Of a stretch of DNA of 64,000 nucleotides, positions 3,904-7,625 are shown one piece after another. Origin of the DNA: a virus; the IMG/VR virus record IMGVR_UViG_3300044911_000835, positions 1 to 64,000 of that record. One strand, given 5' to 3'. Under the pieces are notes generated by a model. That model was not told the DNA's origin, did not search any database, and worked only from the letters and a program-made list of their open reading frames with translations. The stretch's first letter is position 1, and each line of letters starts with the position of its first letter. A program made the translations under genes and the position numbers.

Positions 3904-4029
3904 ATGTTTGGCGAATTCACTGTTCCTGCTTACGCACACGATGCTGTTTGGTACGATATGGTTGATCGTGGCTATATTGAAGTTCCTACCGAGTTTGTTG
4001 ATAAAGAACTTGAAGTGTTTGACGAGTAA
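3904..4029 (+). CDS. acidic 41-aa protein (not in ORF track)
   Basis: MFGEFTVPAYAHDAVWYDMVDRGYIEVPTEFVDKELEVFDE*; AAGGAAG RBS. Confidence 0.65.
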   Translation: MFGEFTVPAYAHDAVWYDMVDRGYIEVPTEFVDKELEVFDE

Positions 4030-4086
4030 TTGTTTTACTGTTACACTTTTTGGTGACAAAGTGCGGATTGCTCACGAAACGAGCAT

Positions 4087-4276
4087 TATTTAGAAATGTC
4101 TACAGCATTAATAGTTGCGTACTATCCTCTGGGGCACTAACAGTATGGAAACACTGTTAGGCACAAGGTAGGCTAAATACTATTAATGTAGTGAAAGTGC
4201 GAGAATGAAGATGGTAAGTCGTTTCCTAATCCCGTGTACATCTAAAGGGCACGTTACTAGTAGATATTTCTAAATA
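4087..4276 (+). ncRNA. orphan multi-stem RNA cassette
   Basis: 17-bp terminal stem TATTTAGAAATGTCTAC/GTAGATATTTCTAAATA; nested stems. Confidence 0.6.
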
Positions 4277-4343
4277 GGTTGTTACCTTAATTGCTTCGGC
4301 ATCTTAAATTAACAATAATATCAGAACTGGTAAATCTGATAGC

Positions 4344-4455
4344 CTATCAACCCACTGAAGAGCTGATGAAAGTTCAGCGAAACAGTCGTATCACAGCTAA
4401 TCTTGATATAAAATAAAATAATCAGAAGATTGTAGCTATATGACTGTATGGATAG
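4344..4455 (+). ncRNA. type I hammerhead ribozyme
   Basis: CUGAAGA core 4355-4361; stem II GCUGA/UCAGC; GAAA 4379-4382; stem III CAGUCGUA/UAUGACUG; GUA cleavage triplet 4446-4448; stem I CCA/UGG plus CUAUC/GAUAG. Confidence 0.85.
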
Positions 4456-4639
4456 TGTTGCGATTATAACAGCTACTTCTTATATCATGCTAAAGAAGTG
4501 CTTAGTAGTTGAAATGAGCACAAATGTTGTAATCAGCCAACAGATCAAGTGTTGGTACTTTCAGTGAAGATTGTACTAGAGAAACTATAATTTCTTTAGA
4601 TTGCTGATCGCGTCTGTTATAGACTTTATCTCACTATCC
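4450..4639 (+). ncRNA. Y-RNA-like element Y0 (large multi-stem cargo)
   Basis: GGATAGTG/CACTATCC closing stem; TTGCG..TATAACAG-CTACTTC ... CTGTTATA-GACTTTATCTC scaffold shared with 5223, 5372, 5471. Confidence 0.75.
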
Positions 4640-4640
4640 T

Positions 4641-4801
4641 TTTTAAGTAAAGCACAGCTTAATAAACTAGCCTAGTTGATCACTAAGCGAATAGGTTTAA
4701 TTGCGTAACTGCCTAGGGAGTGGACTACCTTGGCAACACTTATACGAAGGAAATTGGTTGCTCCACGGCCTTTTCTAAAGTATAAGGGGCTTTACTTAAA
4801 A
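4641..4801 (+). ncRNA. orphan multi-stem RNA cassette
   Basis: 13-bp terminal stem TTTTAAGTAAAGC/GCTTTACTTAAAA; internal hairpins; possible GTGGA/TCCAC pseudoknot. Confidence 0.55.
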
Positions 4802-4802
4802 T

Positions 4803-4875
4803 TGCGGCTTCAGATAGTCTGACTACGGGCTCATAACCCATTAGGGAGGGAGAGCGTTACTCCCGGCCGCATCCA
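4803..4875 (+). tRNA. atypical tRNA-Met(CAU), initiator-like
   Basis: GGG-CT CAT AA-CCC anticodon arm, TCCA end; shrunken D arm and non-consensus T loop. Confidence 0.6.
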
Positions 4876-4908
4876 GATTTATTGTAGTACCACCACCGGA
4901 GACTTAAA

Positions 4909-5139
4909 TTGAAGTTTAAAACAAAACCTGTAGGTAAGTTTGTGTATGGCGTTGCAGCTTTTAACGGATTGGTCACCCAATATTGGGGTGATAGTTATAA
5001 AGATGCAGAGGATGCGTTTTACAAAAGCCATACAGCTACCCATCTTTATAAGATGGTAGGTTCAGTAAAAGAAGTAATTAAGGAAAATCAACGTCGTATG
5101 CGTCAACCAGGAGCAATTGCTCTAGCATTCGGCAAGTAA
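4909..5139 (+). CDS. hypothetical protein
   Basis: TTG start with GGAG RBS. Confidence 0.6.
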   Translation: MKFKTKPVGKFVYGVAAFNGLVTQYWGDSYKDAEDAFYKSHTATHLYKMVGSVKEVIKENQRRMRQPGAIALAFGK

Positions 5140-5146
5140 ACAATTT

Positions 5147-5220
5147 GGGGCTTTAGTTTAATGGGAGAACCACTGGTTTGCAACCAGTTAATAACAGTTC
5201 GATTCTGTTAAGCTCCACCA
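5147..5220 (+). tRNA. tRNA-Ala(UGC)
   Basis: GGGGCTT/AAGCTCC with G3-U70, TT TGC AA loop, ACCA. Confidence 0.93.
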
Positions 5221-5222
5221 AA

Positions 5223-5362
5223 TAATATGTTGCGTAGAAAAGACTTACTTCCACTTCTAATGGGGTTGTCACAGGTTCGAGTCCTGTATAAGGGACGGAG
5301 TCTCTTATTAGCTCAGTTGGTAGAGCACCTAAAATTCGTTTTTTCGACTTTTTCTCATATTA
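5223..5362 (+). ncRNA. yrlA: YrlA-type Y RNA (Y1) with permuted tRNA domain
   Basis: T arm (5271-5287) precedes a closed acceptor-like hairpin and the D arm TAGCTCAGTTGGTAGAGCA (5309-5327); lies upstream of a TROVE gene. Confidence 0.85.
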
Positions 5363-5371
5363 ACAAAATTC

Positions 5372-5461
5372 AGCAGTTGCGTATATAACAGTTACTTCCT
5401 CACCATCTAACGAGGGCCGCTTTGAGGGCGTCCCGTTTCTGTTATAGACTTTTTCTCTGCT
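5372..5461 (+). ncRNA. Y-RNA-like element Y2
   Basis: AGCAG TTGCGTA TATAACAG TTACTTC ... CTGTTATA GACTTTTTCT CTGCT. Confidence 0.75.
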
Positions 5462-5470
5462 TCCACTTAA

Positions 5471-5537
5471 TCCGCTGCGCTAATTCTAGTTACTTCATTT
5501 ATCGGAAATAAAACACTAGAATAACCTATTTCTCGGA
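5471..5537 (+). ncRNA. minimal Y-RNA-like element Y3 overlapping the Rsr RBS
   Basis: TCCG CTGCGCTA ATTCTAG TTACTTC ... CTAGAAT AACCTATTTCT CGGA. Confidence 0.65.
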
Positions 5538-5546
5538 GCTATACAA

Positions 5547-7067
5547 ATGTCAAAATTCAATCAAGCAAACACTTTAGCAAAAGCTTTTTCTGCTAATGGT
5601 AACCTTCAGTATGTTAAGCCTGAAAAAGAACAACTATATGAATTAGTTGTTAATACTCTTTACGGGCGTGATACCTTTTACGAAACCACTGATGCTAAAG
5701 CACAGCGACTTTCAGCTATAGTAGCTAAGCTCGTTGCGTCTAATGAATTCAACTTCCTAGCAAACTTGGCTGTGCACGCAAGGCATGAAATGAATGTGCG
5801 AAATATGCCAGTCATGCTAGTTGACCAGACTGTTAAAGCTTTGAAAGCTCAAGGTAAGAACTTTGCTGGAACTCGTACCCTTGTAAGCCAAGTTGTTGGT
5901 CGCGTTGACCAAATCACCGACTTACTAGCTTTACTAGGCGACAAGGCTAAAATGCCTATGGCGCTAAAGCGCGGGTTGAGTGATGCTTTTAACAAGTTTT
6001 CAGAGTACCAATTTGCCAAGTACAATCGTGCTGGTAAAGTTACTTTGAAAGACGCAATGCGTATCGTACATCCAGTTCCTAAGGATGTGGATATGTCTAT
6101 CCTTTTTGACAAGATCATGAAGGGTAACTTATCGACCCCCGATACGTGGGAAGTAGCACTATCTCGTGATGGTAACACCAAAGAAGTTTGGGAAGGCCTA
6201 ATCGACCGCAAGGTACTAGGGTATCAAGCTACTTTAAAGAATTTGCGTAACATGCTGAATGCTGGAGTTAGTGCAGACCATCAGCGTCAGGTTGCTAAGT
6301 ACATTGTTGACTTCGCCGCTTCTAGCAAATCACTACCATTTGAGTTTCTAGCTTCTATGGAAGCTATTAAGAGTCTTGGTAGTCAGATTCTCAACAATGC
6401 ACTTATTGAGGCTATGGATGCGTCCGTAGTTAACGTACCTTCACTAGGAAACAAAGTTCTAGTTCTACTAGATACTTCTGGTTCTATGGGATTTATGGAA
6501 GGGCGTGCAGTTAAGAACGCAAGCTTCTTGTCAGCAGTATTAGCAAGTGCTAGTAAGAACTGTGAGAAATTCACACTTATTAGTTTCGCTTCTAATGCTA
6601 GACGGCATACTATTAATACCTCAGAACGTGTATTTTCTACCTATGAAAAGCTTGTAAAAGCCAGTGGTGGTGGAAGTACAGATTTTCTTGCTGGATTAAT
6701 AGAGGCTACTAAGGACGGTGTGGAATATGATACAGTCATTGTCCTAACAGATAATGAAATGGATAGCTTTAAGCACTCCTACAATGTAGGTAACTTCCAG
6801 AAGCAGGCCACTAGAGTTATCATTGACTGTTCTGCGTCCGAAACTAGCATTGCTAGCCCCTATGCTGGGTGGCATCATCTTGCAGGTTGGTCACCTAATA
6901 TGTTCCGGTATCTTGATGCAGTTCGTGAAGGTACTTCGATGGTTGAGATGTTAAGTCAACCATTTTCTAGTATGCTAATGAAACGCGAACTAGCGTCTAG
7001 GCGCTGGTCTAGTAAAGAAGTACCTACTTCCAACGTACCGAAAGCTGGACTAACTCATAGCGATTAA
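5547..7067 (+). CDS. rsr: Ro60/Rsr-like TROVE-domain RNA-binding protein with C-terminal vWA domain
   Basis: AR.EMNVR, F..FSEYQFAKYNR, LKD.MR..HP.P, PDTWEV.LS, L.YQA.LKNLRN; vWA MIDAS DTSGSM, GGST, LTDNE. Confidence 0.93.
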   Translation: MSKFNQANTLAKAFSANGNLQYVKPEKEQLYELVVNTLYGRDTFYETTDAKAQRLSAIVAKLVASNEFNFLANLAVHARHEMNVRNMPVMLVDQTVKALKAQGKNFAGTRTLVSQVVGRVDQITDLLALLGDKAKMPMALKRGLSDAFNKFSEYQFAKYNRAGKVTLKDAMRIVHPVPKDVDMSILFDKIMKGNLSTPDTWEVALSRDGNTKEVWEGLIDRKVLGYQATLKNLRNMLNAGVSADHQRQVAKYIVDFAASSKSLPFEFLASMEAIKSLGSQILNNALIEAMDASVVNVPSLGNKVLVLLDTSGSMGFMEGRAVKNASFLSAVLASASKNCEKFTLISFASNARRHTINTSERVFSTYEKLVKASGGGSTDFLAGLIEATKDGVEYDTVIVLTDNEMDSFKHSYNVGNFQKQATRVIIDCSASETSIASPYAGWHHLAGWSPNMFRYLDAVREGTSMVEMLSQPFSSMLMKRELASRRWSSKEVPTSNVPKAGLTHSD

Positions 7068-7094
7068 TAAAAGGCCTTCGGGCCTTTTATTTTC
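7067..7094 (+). terminator. intrinsic terminator
   Basis: ATAAAAGGCC TTCG GGCCTTTTAT TTT. Confidence 0.85.
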
Positions 7095-7126
7095 TTCCTT
7101 TGCGCCAAACCCGCGAAATTCTTCAC

Positions 7127-7155
7127 TTGCTTAAAGTTGCTTAATACCGTATAAT
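7127..7155 (+). promoter_or_regulatory. sigma70-type promoter
   Basis: TTGCTT-17-TATAAT. Confidence 0.75.
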
Positions 7156-7184
7156 ATTATTTCTTTCTGAGAAAAGGAAACAAA

Positions 7185-7460
7185 ATGCAAATTCAATCAA
7201 CCATTACTATGGCTGACACTGTACTAGACTTTATGATGAACGATGAAAATATTATCGAATGGTTTGCTACAGATATGCTAACTGGTGAGTCGGATAGGGG
7301 TTTAGTAGATGCTGAGAATACAGACCTATTCTTTAAAGCAGTTTATATTGCACTATCTGGTGATGATACCTCTATCTCCACAGCAAAGTATGAAGAAATG
7401 GAACGCTTGCTAGGTTTTACAAATGAGAATTCACGGCATCCGGCTCGCTGGATTCCCTAA
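7185..7460 (+). CDS. hypothetical protein
   Basis: AAAGGAAACAAAATG start. Confidence 0.7.
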   Translation: MQIQSTITMADTVLDFMMNDENIIEWFATDMLTGESDRGLVDAENTDLFFKAVYIALSGDDTSISTAKYEEMERLLGFTNENSRHPARWIP

Positions 7461-7466
7461 CAATTT

Positions 7467-7543
7467 GGGCCTCAAGCTTAAGTGGTATAAGCGTCCGACT
7501 CATAATCGGTTGACACAGGGTTCGAGTCCCTGGGGGCCCACCA
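7467..7543 (+). tRNA. tRNA(CAU), probably Ile2 (lysidine type)
   Basis: GGGCC.. acceptor and CCGA-CT CAT AA-TCGG arm typical of Ile2; ACCA. Confidence 0.85.
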
Positions 7544-7549
7544 AATATT

Positions 7550-7625
7550 CCGCCGTTAGCTCAGTGGACAGAGCAGCAGGTTTCTACCCTGTAGGTCGGG
7601 AGTTCGACTCTCTCACGGCGGGCCA
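7550..7625 (+). tRNA. tRNA-Arg(UCU)
   Basis: CCGCCGT/ACGGCGG, TT TCT AC loop, GCCA. Confidence 0.92.

What the first reader, a model, noticed from the sequence alone, without database searches (positions are those of the whole stretch)
5471..5549. Minimal Y element buries the Rsr Shine-Dalgarno: candidate autoregulatory operator
Seen: the 3' strand of the Y3 closing stem (CGGA, 5534-5537) overlaps the GGAG (5535-5538) 8 nt before the ATG at 5547, and Y3 has almost no cargo. Inference: free Rsr binds Y3 on its own mRNA and blocks translation, matching protein supply to Y RNA abundance in the way ribosomal proteins use rRNA-mimic operators.
Basis: partly seen in the sequence, partly recalled or inferred. 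Interest (0 to 1): 0.75.

Follow-up and report, generated by a model that had tools for sequence, protein, structure and literature searches.

The report
Smallest Y RNA overlaps Ro60 ribosome site
In this lake-water phage the last and smallest of four Y RNA genes ends inside the ribosome-binding site of the Ro60 (Rsr) gene; that layout could let Ro60 limit its own synthesis, but the RNA is an ordinary small Y RNA and feedback is neither shown nor conserved in relatives.

Summary
UCCG (5471-5474) can pair with CGGA (5534-5537), which overlaps the GGAG Shine-Dalgarno (SD, 5535-5538) lying 8 nt before the ATG at 5547 of a TROVE+vWA Ro60/Rsr gene. The element (5471-5537) is real. It is the fourth copy of a two-helix Y-RNA scaffold found only here in the 77-kb contig. 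A covariance model built solely from other phages' modules detects it (42 bits, E 2.9e-10).

"Buries" is too strong. The 4-bp stem adds about -1.4 kcal/mol, and the rsr start region is among the easier to open in this phage.

"Almost no cargo" is not special. Its loop matches a small-Y class found at any position in the Y arrays of other Rsr loci in the sample.

Among 52 Rsr loci with upstream modules, only this one has the closing stem on the SD. In the rest of that table the gap to the start codon is 20 nt or more (16 nt in one locus scanned later).

Best reading: an ordinary small Y RNA gene in a tightly packed tRNA-Y-rsr operon (9-nt spacers), with the SD written into its free-to-vary stem. 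Rsr-dependent translational feedback remains possible (about 0.27) and untested.

This scan has raised the same idea on at least 8 other genomes. None has been tested at the bench.

The parts
4450..4639 (+). Y unit A: 8-bp outer stem GGAUAGUG/CACUAUCC, GUUGCG, inner helix UAUAACAG/CUGUUAUA, CUACUUC, and a 134-nt cargo of unknown type
   Evidence: 44.5 bits with R2; its own MFE reproduces both helices
5147..5220 (+). tRNA-Ala(UGC), 2 nt upstream of Y unit B
5223..5362 (+). Y unit B: YrlA-like, with T-arm and D-arm cargo; outer stem UAAUAUG/CAUAUUA, inner helix GAAAAGAC/GUUUUUUC
   Evidence: Rfam YrlA 35.1 bits, E 3.6e-05, below the gathering score of 69
5372..5461 (+). Y unit C: 40-nt cargo, outer stem AGCAG/CUGCU, inner helix UAUAACAG/CUGUUAUA
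   Evidence: 54.5 bits with R2
5471..5537 (+). Y unit D (the finding): a 67-nt mini-Y. Outer stem UCCG 5471-5474 / CGGA 5534-5537. 5' loop CUGCG 5475-5479. Inner helix AUUCUAG 5483-5489 / CUAGAAU 5516-5522. UUACUUC 5490-5496. Loop 5497-5515. 3' tail AACCUAUUUCUC 5523-5534
   Evidence: 42 bits, E 2.9e-10, with a model built from other loci only
5535..5538 (+). Shine-Dalgarno GGAG of rsr; its first three bases are the last three of the outer stem of unit D
   Evidence: spacing of 8 nt to the ATG
5547..7067 (+). rsr: Ro60 orthologue, 506 aa, TROVE + vWA
7066..7091 (+). Terminator-like hairpin plus U tract directly after rsr; the RNA-derived contig of run X17 stops near here

Best explanation
Unit D (5471-5537) is the fourth and smallest gene of a Y RNA array that is transcribed with tRNA-Ala and rsr. 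It is a roughly 67-nt hairpin-type Y RNA, comparable to YrlB/Yrn2, and carries the same stem / internal loop / stem scaffold as units A-C.

How it most likely works:
- Rsr is expected to bind the scaffold. This is inferred from family knowledge and not shown here.
- The operon is packed with 9-nt spacers (B-C, C-D, D-ATG). The sequence of the closing stem is free to vary as long as it pairs.
- The rsr SD has therefore been written into the 3' strand of D's 4-bp closing stem.
- That stem is too weak to hide the SD by itself.
- The overlap follows from compaction. Any feedback is a by-product of the layout, not a dedicated, conserved operator. A precursor molecule whose D is clamped by Rsr or cut out cannot initiate at this SD.
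For: Family membership:
- Four copies with identical spacing and covarying helices lie only upstream of rsr.
- A model trained on 40 modules from other loci finds D at E 2.9e-10 and nothing else outside the four units.
- Covariation of both helices: 93.8% of cells paired against 62% in shuffles, about 45% when slid, on 9 sequences. On 40 sequences the figures are 94.8% against 59%.

D looks like a free small Y RNA:
- D's loop (UUACUUCAUUUAUC-GGAAAUAAAACA) fits the consensus of a mini-Y class. That class occurs far from the RBS in other loci: L093 at 447 nt, L002 at 408 nt, L079 at 570 nt.
- The mini form is not enriched at the last position.

Compaction:
- The spacers 5363-5371, 5462-5470 and 5538-5546 are each 9 nt (read).

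The overlap is not a conserved feature:
- Only the window has an SD overlap among 52 loci. In the others the gap is 20 nt or more, and 23 of 52 end within 54 nt of the ATG. In extra loci scanned later the gaps are 16 (L102), 21 (L104) and 23 nt (L105).

The stem is weak:
- Closure is worth -1.4 kcal/mol and the start region is easy to open.

Transcription:
- RNA-derived contigs run uninterrupted from about 4806/4891 through units B-D and rsr. By arithmetic from the record lengths they reach about 7063-7200 (X10, X17). This is compatible with one transcription unit.

Literature (PMC4201824):
- Y RNAs are encoded upstream of rsr.
- They are processed from polycistronic precursors, some of which include a tRNA.
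- Each studied species has a small hairpin-type Y RNA.
- M. smegmatis YrlB, which lies between YrlA and rsr, is a free Rsr-bound RNA.
Against: - The window has the tightest juxtaposition of all loci examined (8-9 nt, against 16 nt or more). It is an outlier that compaction alone need not produce.
- No read-level RNA ends are available, so release of D as a free RNA in this phage is not shown.
- D's 5' loop (UGCGCUA) departs most from the GNCGAAN0-1G / UGCG(A/U)AG motif. It also lacks the usual G:C pair at the base of the inner helix. This could mean weaker Rsr binding, as expected of an operator, or simple drift.
- Close relatives (Rsr 83% and 67% identical) could not be examined.
Confidence: 0.52

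Rival explanations
1. Dedicated autogenous operator. D acts in cis on the rsr mRNA. When Rsr exceeds its free Y RNA partners it binds the scaffold of D. That locks the weak 4-bp stem containing the SD and sterically blocks the 30S subunit. D may also be released as a Y RNA.
For: - D has the full scaffold shared with units A-C.
- The conserved 3' tail ends at -13 and the stem covers -13 to -10 relative to the ATG.
- The stem is too weak to act without a protein. That is what a protein-dependent switch needs.
- D has the most degenerate loop motif, which fits an operator of lower affinity than the primary ligands.
- The last Y module ends within 54 nt of the start codon in 23 of 52 loci.
- Two of the closest accessible relatives carry helix-less motif remnants right at the SD (L093 GUUGCGAAAAUAUUAACUC, L002 GCUGCUCAAUCUC).
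- The same idea arose independently on at least 8 other genomes of this scan. These are leads only, not support.
Against: - No overlap of a closing stem with the SD was seen in any other locus examined.
- The mini form is not preferentially RBS-proximal.
- The canonical motif is only weakly enriched in leaders outside modules: 5 of 91 against 1.9 expected, with 27 of 500 shuffles as high. CGAA is not enriched.
- The rsr start region is not unusually structured.
- The held literature shows no Ro60 autoregulation.
- There are no binding or expression data.
Confidence: 0.27
2. Processing-coupled trade-off without Rsr binding in cis. Each precursor is either cut in the 9-nt spacer after D, or is translated. 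Cutting yields mature D and an rsr message without an SD. The ratio is set by RNases, not by Rsr.
For: - The SD lies inside D and the spacers are a regular 9 nt.
- Y RNAs are cut from polycistronic precursors (PMC4201824).
- RNA contigs span Y units and rsr.
Against: - Contigs cannot show ends.
- No cleavage motif is shared by the three spacers (ACAAAAUUC, UCCACUUAA, GCUAUACAA).
- Rsr is known to stabilise Y RNAs, so independence from Rsr is unlikely.
Confidence: 0.12
3. rsr has its own promoter inside D (TTCATT-N17-TAGAAT, with the -10 element at 5517-5522). Its mRNA would start near 5529 and never contain the 5' strand of the stem. The overlap would then have no consequence for translation.
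For: TAGAAT is a good -10-like hexamer in the 3' arm of the inner helix (read).
Against: - The promoter scan reports nothing between 4420 and 5996.
- The -35 match is 3 of 6.
- RNA contigs are continuous across D.
- The host's promoter type is unknown.
Confidence: 0.06

Closest known systems
Bacterial and phage Y RNAs bound by Rsr/Ro60: S. Typhimurium and M. smegmatis YrlA/YrlB, D. radiodurans Yrn1/Yrn2, Thermus phage phiLo Yrl1/Yrl2 (PMC4201824, PMC12135203)
   Same: - Encoded next to rsr on the same strand, in arrays of 2-5, together with tRNAs.
- 5' and 3' ends form a stem interrupted by a conserved internal loop carrying a CG(A/U)A-type motif on the 5' strand.
- One copy per locus is a tRNA mimic (unit B here) and another is a small hairpin (unit D here).
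- Known cases are processed from a common precursor upstream of rsr.
   Different: - D's loop reads UGCGCUA and does not match GNCGAAN0-1G.
- Its closing stem is only 4 bp and contains the rsr SD.
- This tight overlap was seen in none of the other Rsr loci examined here.
Autogenous translational operators that mimic the protein's RNA ligand: E. coli thrS operator (tRNA-Thr anticodon-arm mimic), ribosomal-protein operators (S8, S15, L1, L20), MS2 coat protein-replicase hairpin, T4 RegA/gp32 (own knowledge)
   Same: A copy of the protein's natural RNA ligand sits on or beside the ribosome-binding site of the protein's own gene, so excess protein could compete with the 30S subunit.
   Different: - Here the 'mimic' is a complete member of the ligand family and probably a product in its own right.
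- Neither binding nor repression has been measured.
- The arrangement is not conserved in relatives, whereas classical operators are.
M. smegmatis YrlA-YrlB-rsr precursor (PMC4201824)
   Same: The order is a large tRNA-like Y, then a small Y, then rsr, on one transcript.
   Different: The distance of YrlB to the rsr SD was not examined here. YrlB is experimentally a free Rsr-bound RNA, while D's fate is unknown.

Membership tests
Rsr-associated Y RNA (bacterial/phage) | Encoded within a few kb of the Ro60/Rsr gene on the same strand | tested here: met
   D ends 9 nt before the rsr ATG. All four copies are on the + strand. All 149 model hits in 100 other loci are on the rsr strand.
Rsr-associated Y RNA (bacterial/phage) | 5' and 3' ends pair into a stem interrupted by a conserved internal loop (stem-loop-stem scaffold) | tested here: met
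   Outer stem 4 bp plus inner helix 7 bp in D, at the same register as units A-C. The MFE of the isolated unit gives this fold. Covariation in 9 and 40 homologous modules. The second alignment is fitted to the model.
Rsr-associated Y RNA (bacterial/phage) | GNCGAAN0-1G motif near the 5' end (PMC4201824) | tested here: inconclusive
   There is no exact match. D has CUGCGCUAA; units A-C have UGCGAUU, UGCGUAG and UGCGUAU. The position-homologous motif in relatives is UGCGAAG/UGCGUAG. UGCG is invariant, and the two bases after it are degenerate in this phage.
Rsr-associated Y RNA (bacterial/phage) | Detected by a covariance model of homologous modules that excludes the window | tested here: met
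   R2: 42.0 bits, E 2.9e-10, full length 1-70. The training hits had been selected with R1, which did include units C and D.
Rsr-associated Y RNA (bacterial/phage) | Bound by Rsr and dependent on Rsr for accumulation | not testable with these tools
   Needs immunoprecipitation or EMSA and Northern blots.
YrlA subfamily (Rfam RF02553) | tRNA-like domain (T arm, D arm) as cargo | tested here: not met
   There is no YrlA hit on D even at E <= 10. Only unit B matches (35.1 bits, below the gathering score of 69). D is of the small hairpin type.
Autogenous translational operator by ligand mimicry | Ligand-like RNA element overlapping or abutting the RBS of the protein's own gene | tested here: met
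   CGGA 5534-5537 overlaps GGAG 5535-5538.
Autogenous translational operator by ligand mimicry | Arrangement conserved in homologous loci | tested here: not met
   None of the 51 other loci in the gap table has the closing stem on the SD. Their gaps are 20 nt or more, and 16 nt (L102) among loci scanned later. Close relatives (>60% identity) could not be fetched.
Autogenous translational operator by ligand mimicry | Protein binds the element and represses translation | not testable with these tools
   Needs toeprinting or reporter assays.

The most novel reading that the evidence does not exclude
Ro60/Rsr controls its own synthesis by binding a Y RNA that is still part of its mRNA. The last Y RNA of the array doubles as a translational operator, because its closing stem is the Shine-Dalgarno sequence. 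Y-RNP assembly and Rsr translation then compete on each precursor molecule. This would be the first autoregulatory circuit described for the Ro60 family.
Probability: 0.27. Interest if true: 0.7.

Novelty: new member of a known kind. Interest (0 to 1): 0.42.

Why it matters
How cells or phages match Ro60 levels to their Y RNAs is not known; the held literature reports only mutual stabilisation. A Y RNA whose closing stem is the ribosome-binding site of rsr offers a simple, directly testable way to couple the two. This locus has the cleanest such overlap among about 55 Rsr loci examined.

If the overlap is mere compaction, the locus still has value. It documents a four-member modular Y array in an uncultured lake phage. 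It also documents a widespread mini-Y class with a conserved UUACUUC...GAAA(C/A) loop, which the Rfam YrlA model missed at unit D.

Tried and rejected
The contigs of the close Rsr homologues P0002 (83%), P0003 (67%), P0004 and P0006 could not be fetched.
- The search for related loci with the window protein, P0002, P0003 and alignment A1 gave only relatives of 39% identity or less in IMG/VR and JGI metagenomes.
- megablast against GenBank phages found no match.
- A pattern scan of IMG/VR for a mini-Y tail fused to GGAG gave 114 stretches. Only one (L134) precedes an Rsr gene, and there the module ends 22 nt before the ATG.
- Scan notes for look-alike stretches in other genomes: none.
- Read laying gave contigs only, so no RNA ends, strand or level could be read. 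Parts without cover in the small RNA runs (for example 5256-5484 in X18) are not evidence.
- No sequence variant falls in 5291-5602 in any laid run, so there is no natural covariation test of the UCC/GGA pairs.
- Sigma-70-type reading of the repeated 5' motif (TTGCGx as -35): rejected. The spacing to any -10 is wrong and the helices covary.
- Enrichment of CGAA or GNCGAAN0-1G in rsr leaders is weak or absent.
- Preference of mini-Y for the last array position is not significant.
- Rfam reports no hammerhead in 4000-7600 even at E <= 10. This bears on a neighbouring first-reader note, not on this finding.

Full report
**Context.** The window is the first 64 kb of a 77-kb IMG/VR virus contig, estimated 73% complete. 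DNA and RNA runs that hold it come from lake water and freshwater. It is rich in small RNA genes: 23 tRNAs in the first 20 kb and a permuted tmRNA. ORF 5547-7067 (+) is a Ro60/Rsr orthologue. Pfam gives TROVE at 1.4e-29 and the Ro60 vWA domain at 1.5e-07. The best solved relative is the Thermus phage phiLo Ro60 (9KOP/9L5Y, E 4e-24), with Xenopus Ro60 at E 3.7e-4. A terminator-like hairpin follows at 7066-7091.

**Observation.** All coordinates in the finding are right.
- UCCG lies at 5471-5474 and CGGA at 5534-5537.
- GGAG lies at 5535-5538 and ATG at 5547, with an 8-nt spacer between them.
- The start codon is supported by the N-terminus MSKFNQ, which matches the M-x-K/R-x-N start of homologues.

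**What the element is.** A repeat search and direct reading show four units: 4450-4639 (A), 5223-5362 (B), 5372-5461 (C) and 5471-5537 (D). All share one plan:
- an outer stem;
- GYUGCG;
- a 10-nt 5' arm;
- YUACUUC;
- the cargo;
- a 3' arm;
- an 11-nt pyrimidine-rich tail ending in CUC;
- the outer stem's 3' strand.

The 5' motif GYTGCG-N10-YTACTTC occurs four times in the whole 77-kb contig, only here and only on the rsr strand. Looser matches elsewhere are at shuffle level. Spacing within the conserved halves is identical in all four.
- Outer stems: GGAUAGUG/CACUAUCC, UAAUAUG/CAUAUUA, AGCAG/CUGCU and UCCG/CGGA.
- Inner helices: UAUAACAG/CUGUUAUA (A and C), GAAAAGAC/GUUUUUUC (B) and AUUCUAG/CUAGAAU (D).

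The differences between copies are therefore compensatory. Each isolated unit folds into exactly this two-helix shape as its minimum-energy structure.

Unit B has a T arm and D arm and gives a sub-threshold Rfam YrlA hit (35 bits, E 3.6e-5, gathering score 69).

**The scaffold in other Rsr loci.** The same scaffold appears upstream of distant Rsr homologues of 22-39% identity. A covariance model of nine short modules (R1) gave 149 hits in 100 Rsr loci, every one on the rsr strand. In the window it gave only the four units at significant E-values.

A second model, R2, was built from 40 modules of other loci only. It again finds just these four, with D at 42 bits and E 2.9e-10.

Pair counts support both helices:
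- On 9 sequences, 93.8% of cells are paired, against 62% in shuffles and about 45% when slid.
- On 40 sequences, 94.8% are paired against 59% in shuffles. This alignment is fitted to the model, and my first module picks required some pairing, so the figures lean upwards.

In relatives the 5' loop reads UGCGAAG or UGCGUAG. This overlaps the GNCGAAN0-1G motif that Chen et al. 2014 (PMC4201824) proposed as the Rsr contact. In this phage it has drifted to UGCG + AU/UA/UA/CU.

I conclude that the units are Y RNA genes and that D is a true member.

**Is the 'minimal cargo' special? No.** Hits of 76 nt or less form a large class with a conserved loop: UUACUUC, a few nt, (U)UAAUGAAA(C/A), a few A-rich nt, then the 3' arm.
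- D's loop UUACUUCAUUUAUCGGAAAUAAAACA fits this consensus.
- Members sit hundreds of nt from rsr in L093, L002, L079 and L114, and downstream of rsr in other phages.
- In arrays that abut rsr, the mini form is last in 14 of 25. It makes up 20 of 49 at other positions (Fisher p 0.23).
- Chen et al. state that every studied species has such a small hairpin-type Y RNA (Yrn2, the YrlBs). They also state that M. smegmatis YrlB, located between YrlA and rsr, is a free Rsr-bound RNA cut from a common precursor.

**Does it bury the SD? Not by RNA structure.**
- Closing the 4-bp outer stem of D is worth about -1.4 kcal/mol. The values for A, B and C are -9.0, -2.6 and -4.9.
- Folding 5471-5549 is no better than shuffles (z -1.1).
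- Freeing -16 to +3 of rsr costs 3.6 kcal/mol. That is the 23rd percentile of 35 SD-bearing genes of this phage (median 5.0).
- Any masking would therefore need a protein.

I predicted rsr start codons in the fetched loci and measured the distance from the end of the last upstream module to the start codon.
- The window has 8 nt and is the only case where the closing stem reaches the SD.
- In that table the next values are 20-22 nt (L079, L006, L012, L098).
- Extra loci scanned with R2 give 16 (L102), 21 (L104) and 23 nt (L105).
- 23 of 52 loci have the last module within 54 nt.
- Extending the outer stems does not bring them onto the SD anywhere else.
- A collection-wide pattern search for a mini-Y tail fused to GGAG found no further case before an Rsr gene.

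Proximity of the last Y module to the RBS is therefore common, but overlap is unique to this locus in the accessible sample.

**Packing.** tRNA-Ala ends 2 nt before unit B. The spacers B-C, C-D and D-ATG are each exactly 9 nt (5363-5371, 5462-5470, 5538-5546). With a 9-nt spacer there is no room for a separate SD at the usual distance. The only sequence-free part of a Y module is its closing stem. Writing GGA(G) into that stem, with UCC opposite, costs nothing. This is the simplest account of the overlap.

**Transcripts.** Only assembled contigs could be laid.
- In two RNA studies, contigs run without break from about 4806 (X10) or 4891 (X17) through units B-D and rsr. By arithmetic from the record lengths they reach about 7200 and 7063.
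- This is compatible with one tRNA-Y-rsr transcription unit. It does not show ends or processing.
- No variant occurs between 5291 and 5602 in any run, while the rsr segment 5603-5750 differs at about 30 sites in X17. Natural covariation cannot test the UCC/GGA pairs.

**Mechanism.**
- Shown: D is a Y-scaffold RNA whose closing stem contains the SD, and the stem is weak.
- Established for the family: Rsr binds the scaffold of Y RNAs, mainly the 5' strand motif, and stabilises them. Y RNAs are cut out of polycistronic precursors (PMC4201824, PMC12135203).
- Inferred: D is made as a small Y RNA. On any precursor where Rsr has clamped D, or where D has been excised, the SD is unavailable.

Some negative coupling between Y-RNP formation and Rsr synthesis therefore follows from the layout. 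The open question is whether this is a selected control circuit or a side effect of compaction. I put 0.52 on ordinary Y gene plus compaction and 0.27 on a real Rsr-responsive operator. The remainder goes to RNase-set partitioning or an internal promoter.

**Weak hints for the operator view.**
- L093 and L002 are two of the nearest accessible relatives. Both carry helix-less remnants of the two conserved strands right at the SD.
- L064 has an 8-bp hairpin that sequesters the SD.
- The canonical motif is slightly over-represented in leaders outside modules: 5 of 91 against 1.9 expected, with 27 of 500 shuffles as high.

**Earlier notes of this scan.** The same idea has been raised on at least 8 other genomes. 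One note describes the RBS lying in the closing stem of the last of five Y RNAs in another phage. None has been tested at the bench, and I treat them as leads only. I found no report of Ro60 autoregulation in the held literature.

**Verdict.** The element is a new member of a known kind, a small Y RNA in a phage Y array. The autoregulation reading is plausible, cheap to test and currently unsupported by conservation.

Noticed in passing
window 4487-4807: Three metatranscriptome runs from two studies each hold a separate contig of about 320 nt. It starts exactly at 4487 and ends at 4790-4807, at higher depth than its neighbours. In X10 an Illumina adapter follows 4790, which points to a real fragment end. 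It covers the cargo and 3' half of Y unit A plus the next clamped RNA, but not the first 37 nt of unit A. A DNA run reads through both ends.
   Followed up: partly
window 4641-4801: A perfect 13-bp inverted repeat (UUUUAAGUAAAGC / GCUUUACUUAAAA) encloses 135 nt directly after Y unit A. This is a clamped structured RNA of unknown kind, with no Rfam match.
   Followed up: no
window 5252-5290 (Y unit B): Natural variants in runs X17 and X11 change C5257>G together with G5262>C. This is a compensatory pair in the small hairpin ACUUC-UAAU-GGGGU. The variants 5252 C>G, 5267 U>G and 5290 A>G accompany it.
   Followed up: partly
window 4344-4455: A neighbouring first-reader note proposes a hammerhead ribozyme here. 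Rfam reports no hammerhead for 4000-7600 even at E <= 10, and the RNA contigs do not begin at the proposed cut.
   Followed up: partly
L093:2829-2880 and L002:2958-3003: In two of the nearest accessible Rsr loci, the two conserved strands of the Y scaffold occur back to back without the inner helix, right at the SD. L093 has GUUGCGAAAAUAUUAACUC inside a 7-bp stem UCUAAUC/GAUUAGA. L002 has GCUGCUCAAUCUC between UUAAG and CUUAA. Significance was not established.
   Followed up: partly
L064:996-1025: The rsr SD AGGAGG is sequestered in a perfect 8-bp hairpin GGCCUCCU...AGGAGGCC, 50 nt after the last Y module.
   Followed up: no
L121-L125 (GenBank phages): Model R2 finds Y-scaffold modules in named phages. 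Five lie upstream of the Rsr gene of Xanthomonas phage MET23-P3 and four upstream of that of Brevundimonas phage Gurke. In Microcystis phage Mvi-JY20 and crAss-like phage cr106_1 they lie downstream of rsr. In Arthrobacter phage Atuin they lie on both sides, among tRNAs. None is annotated in the stretches fetched.
   Followed up: partly
window 4488-4568: A 26-codon ORF (ATG at 4488) begins 1 nt after the shared start of the RNA contigs, inside the cargo of Y unit A. This is probably coincidence.
   Followed up: no
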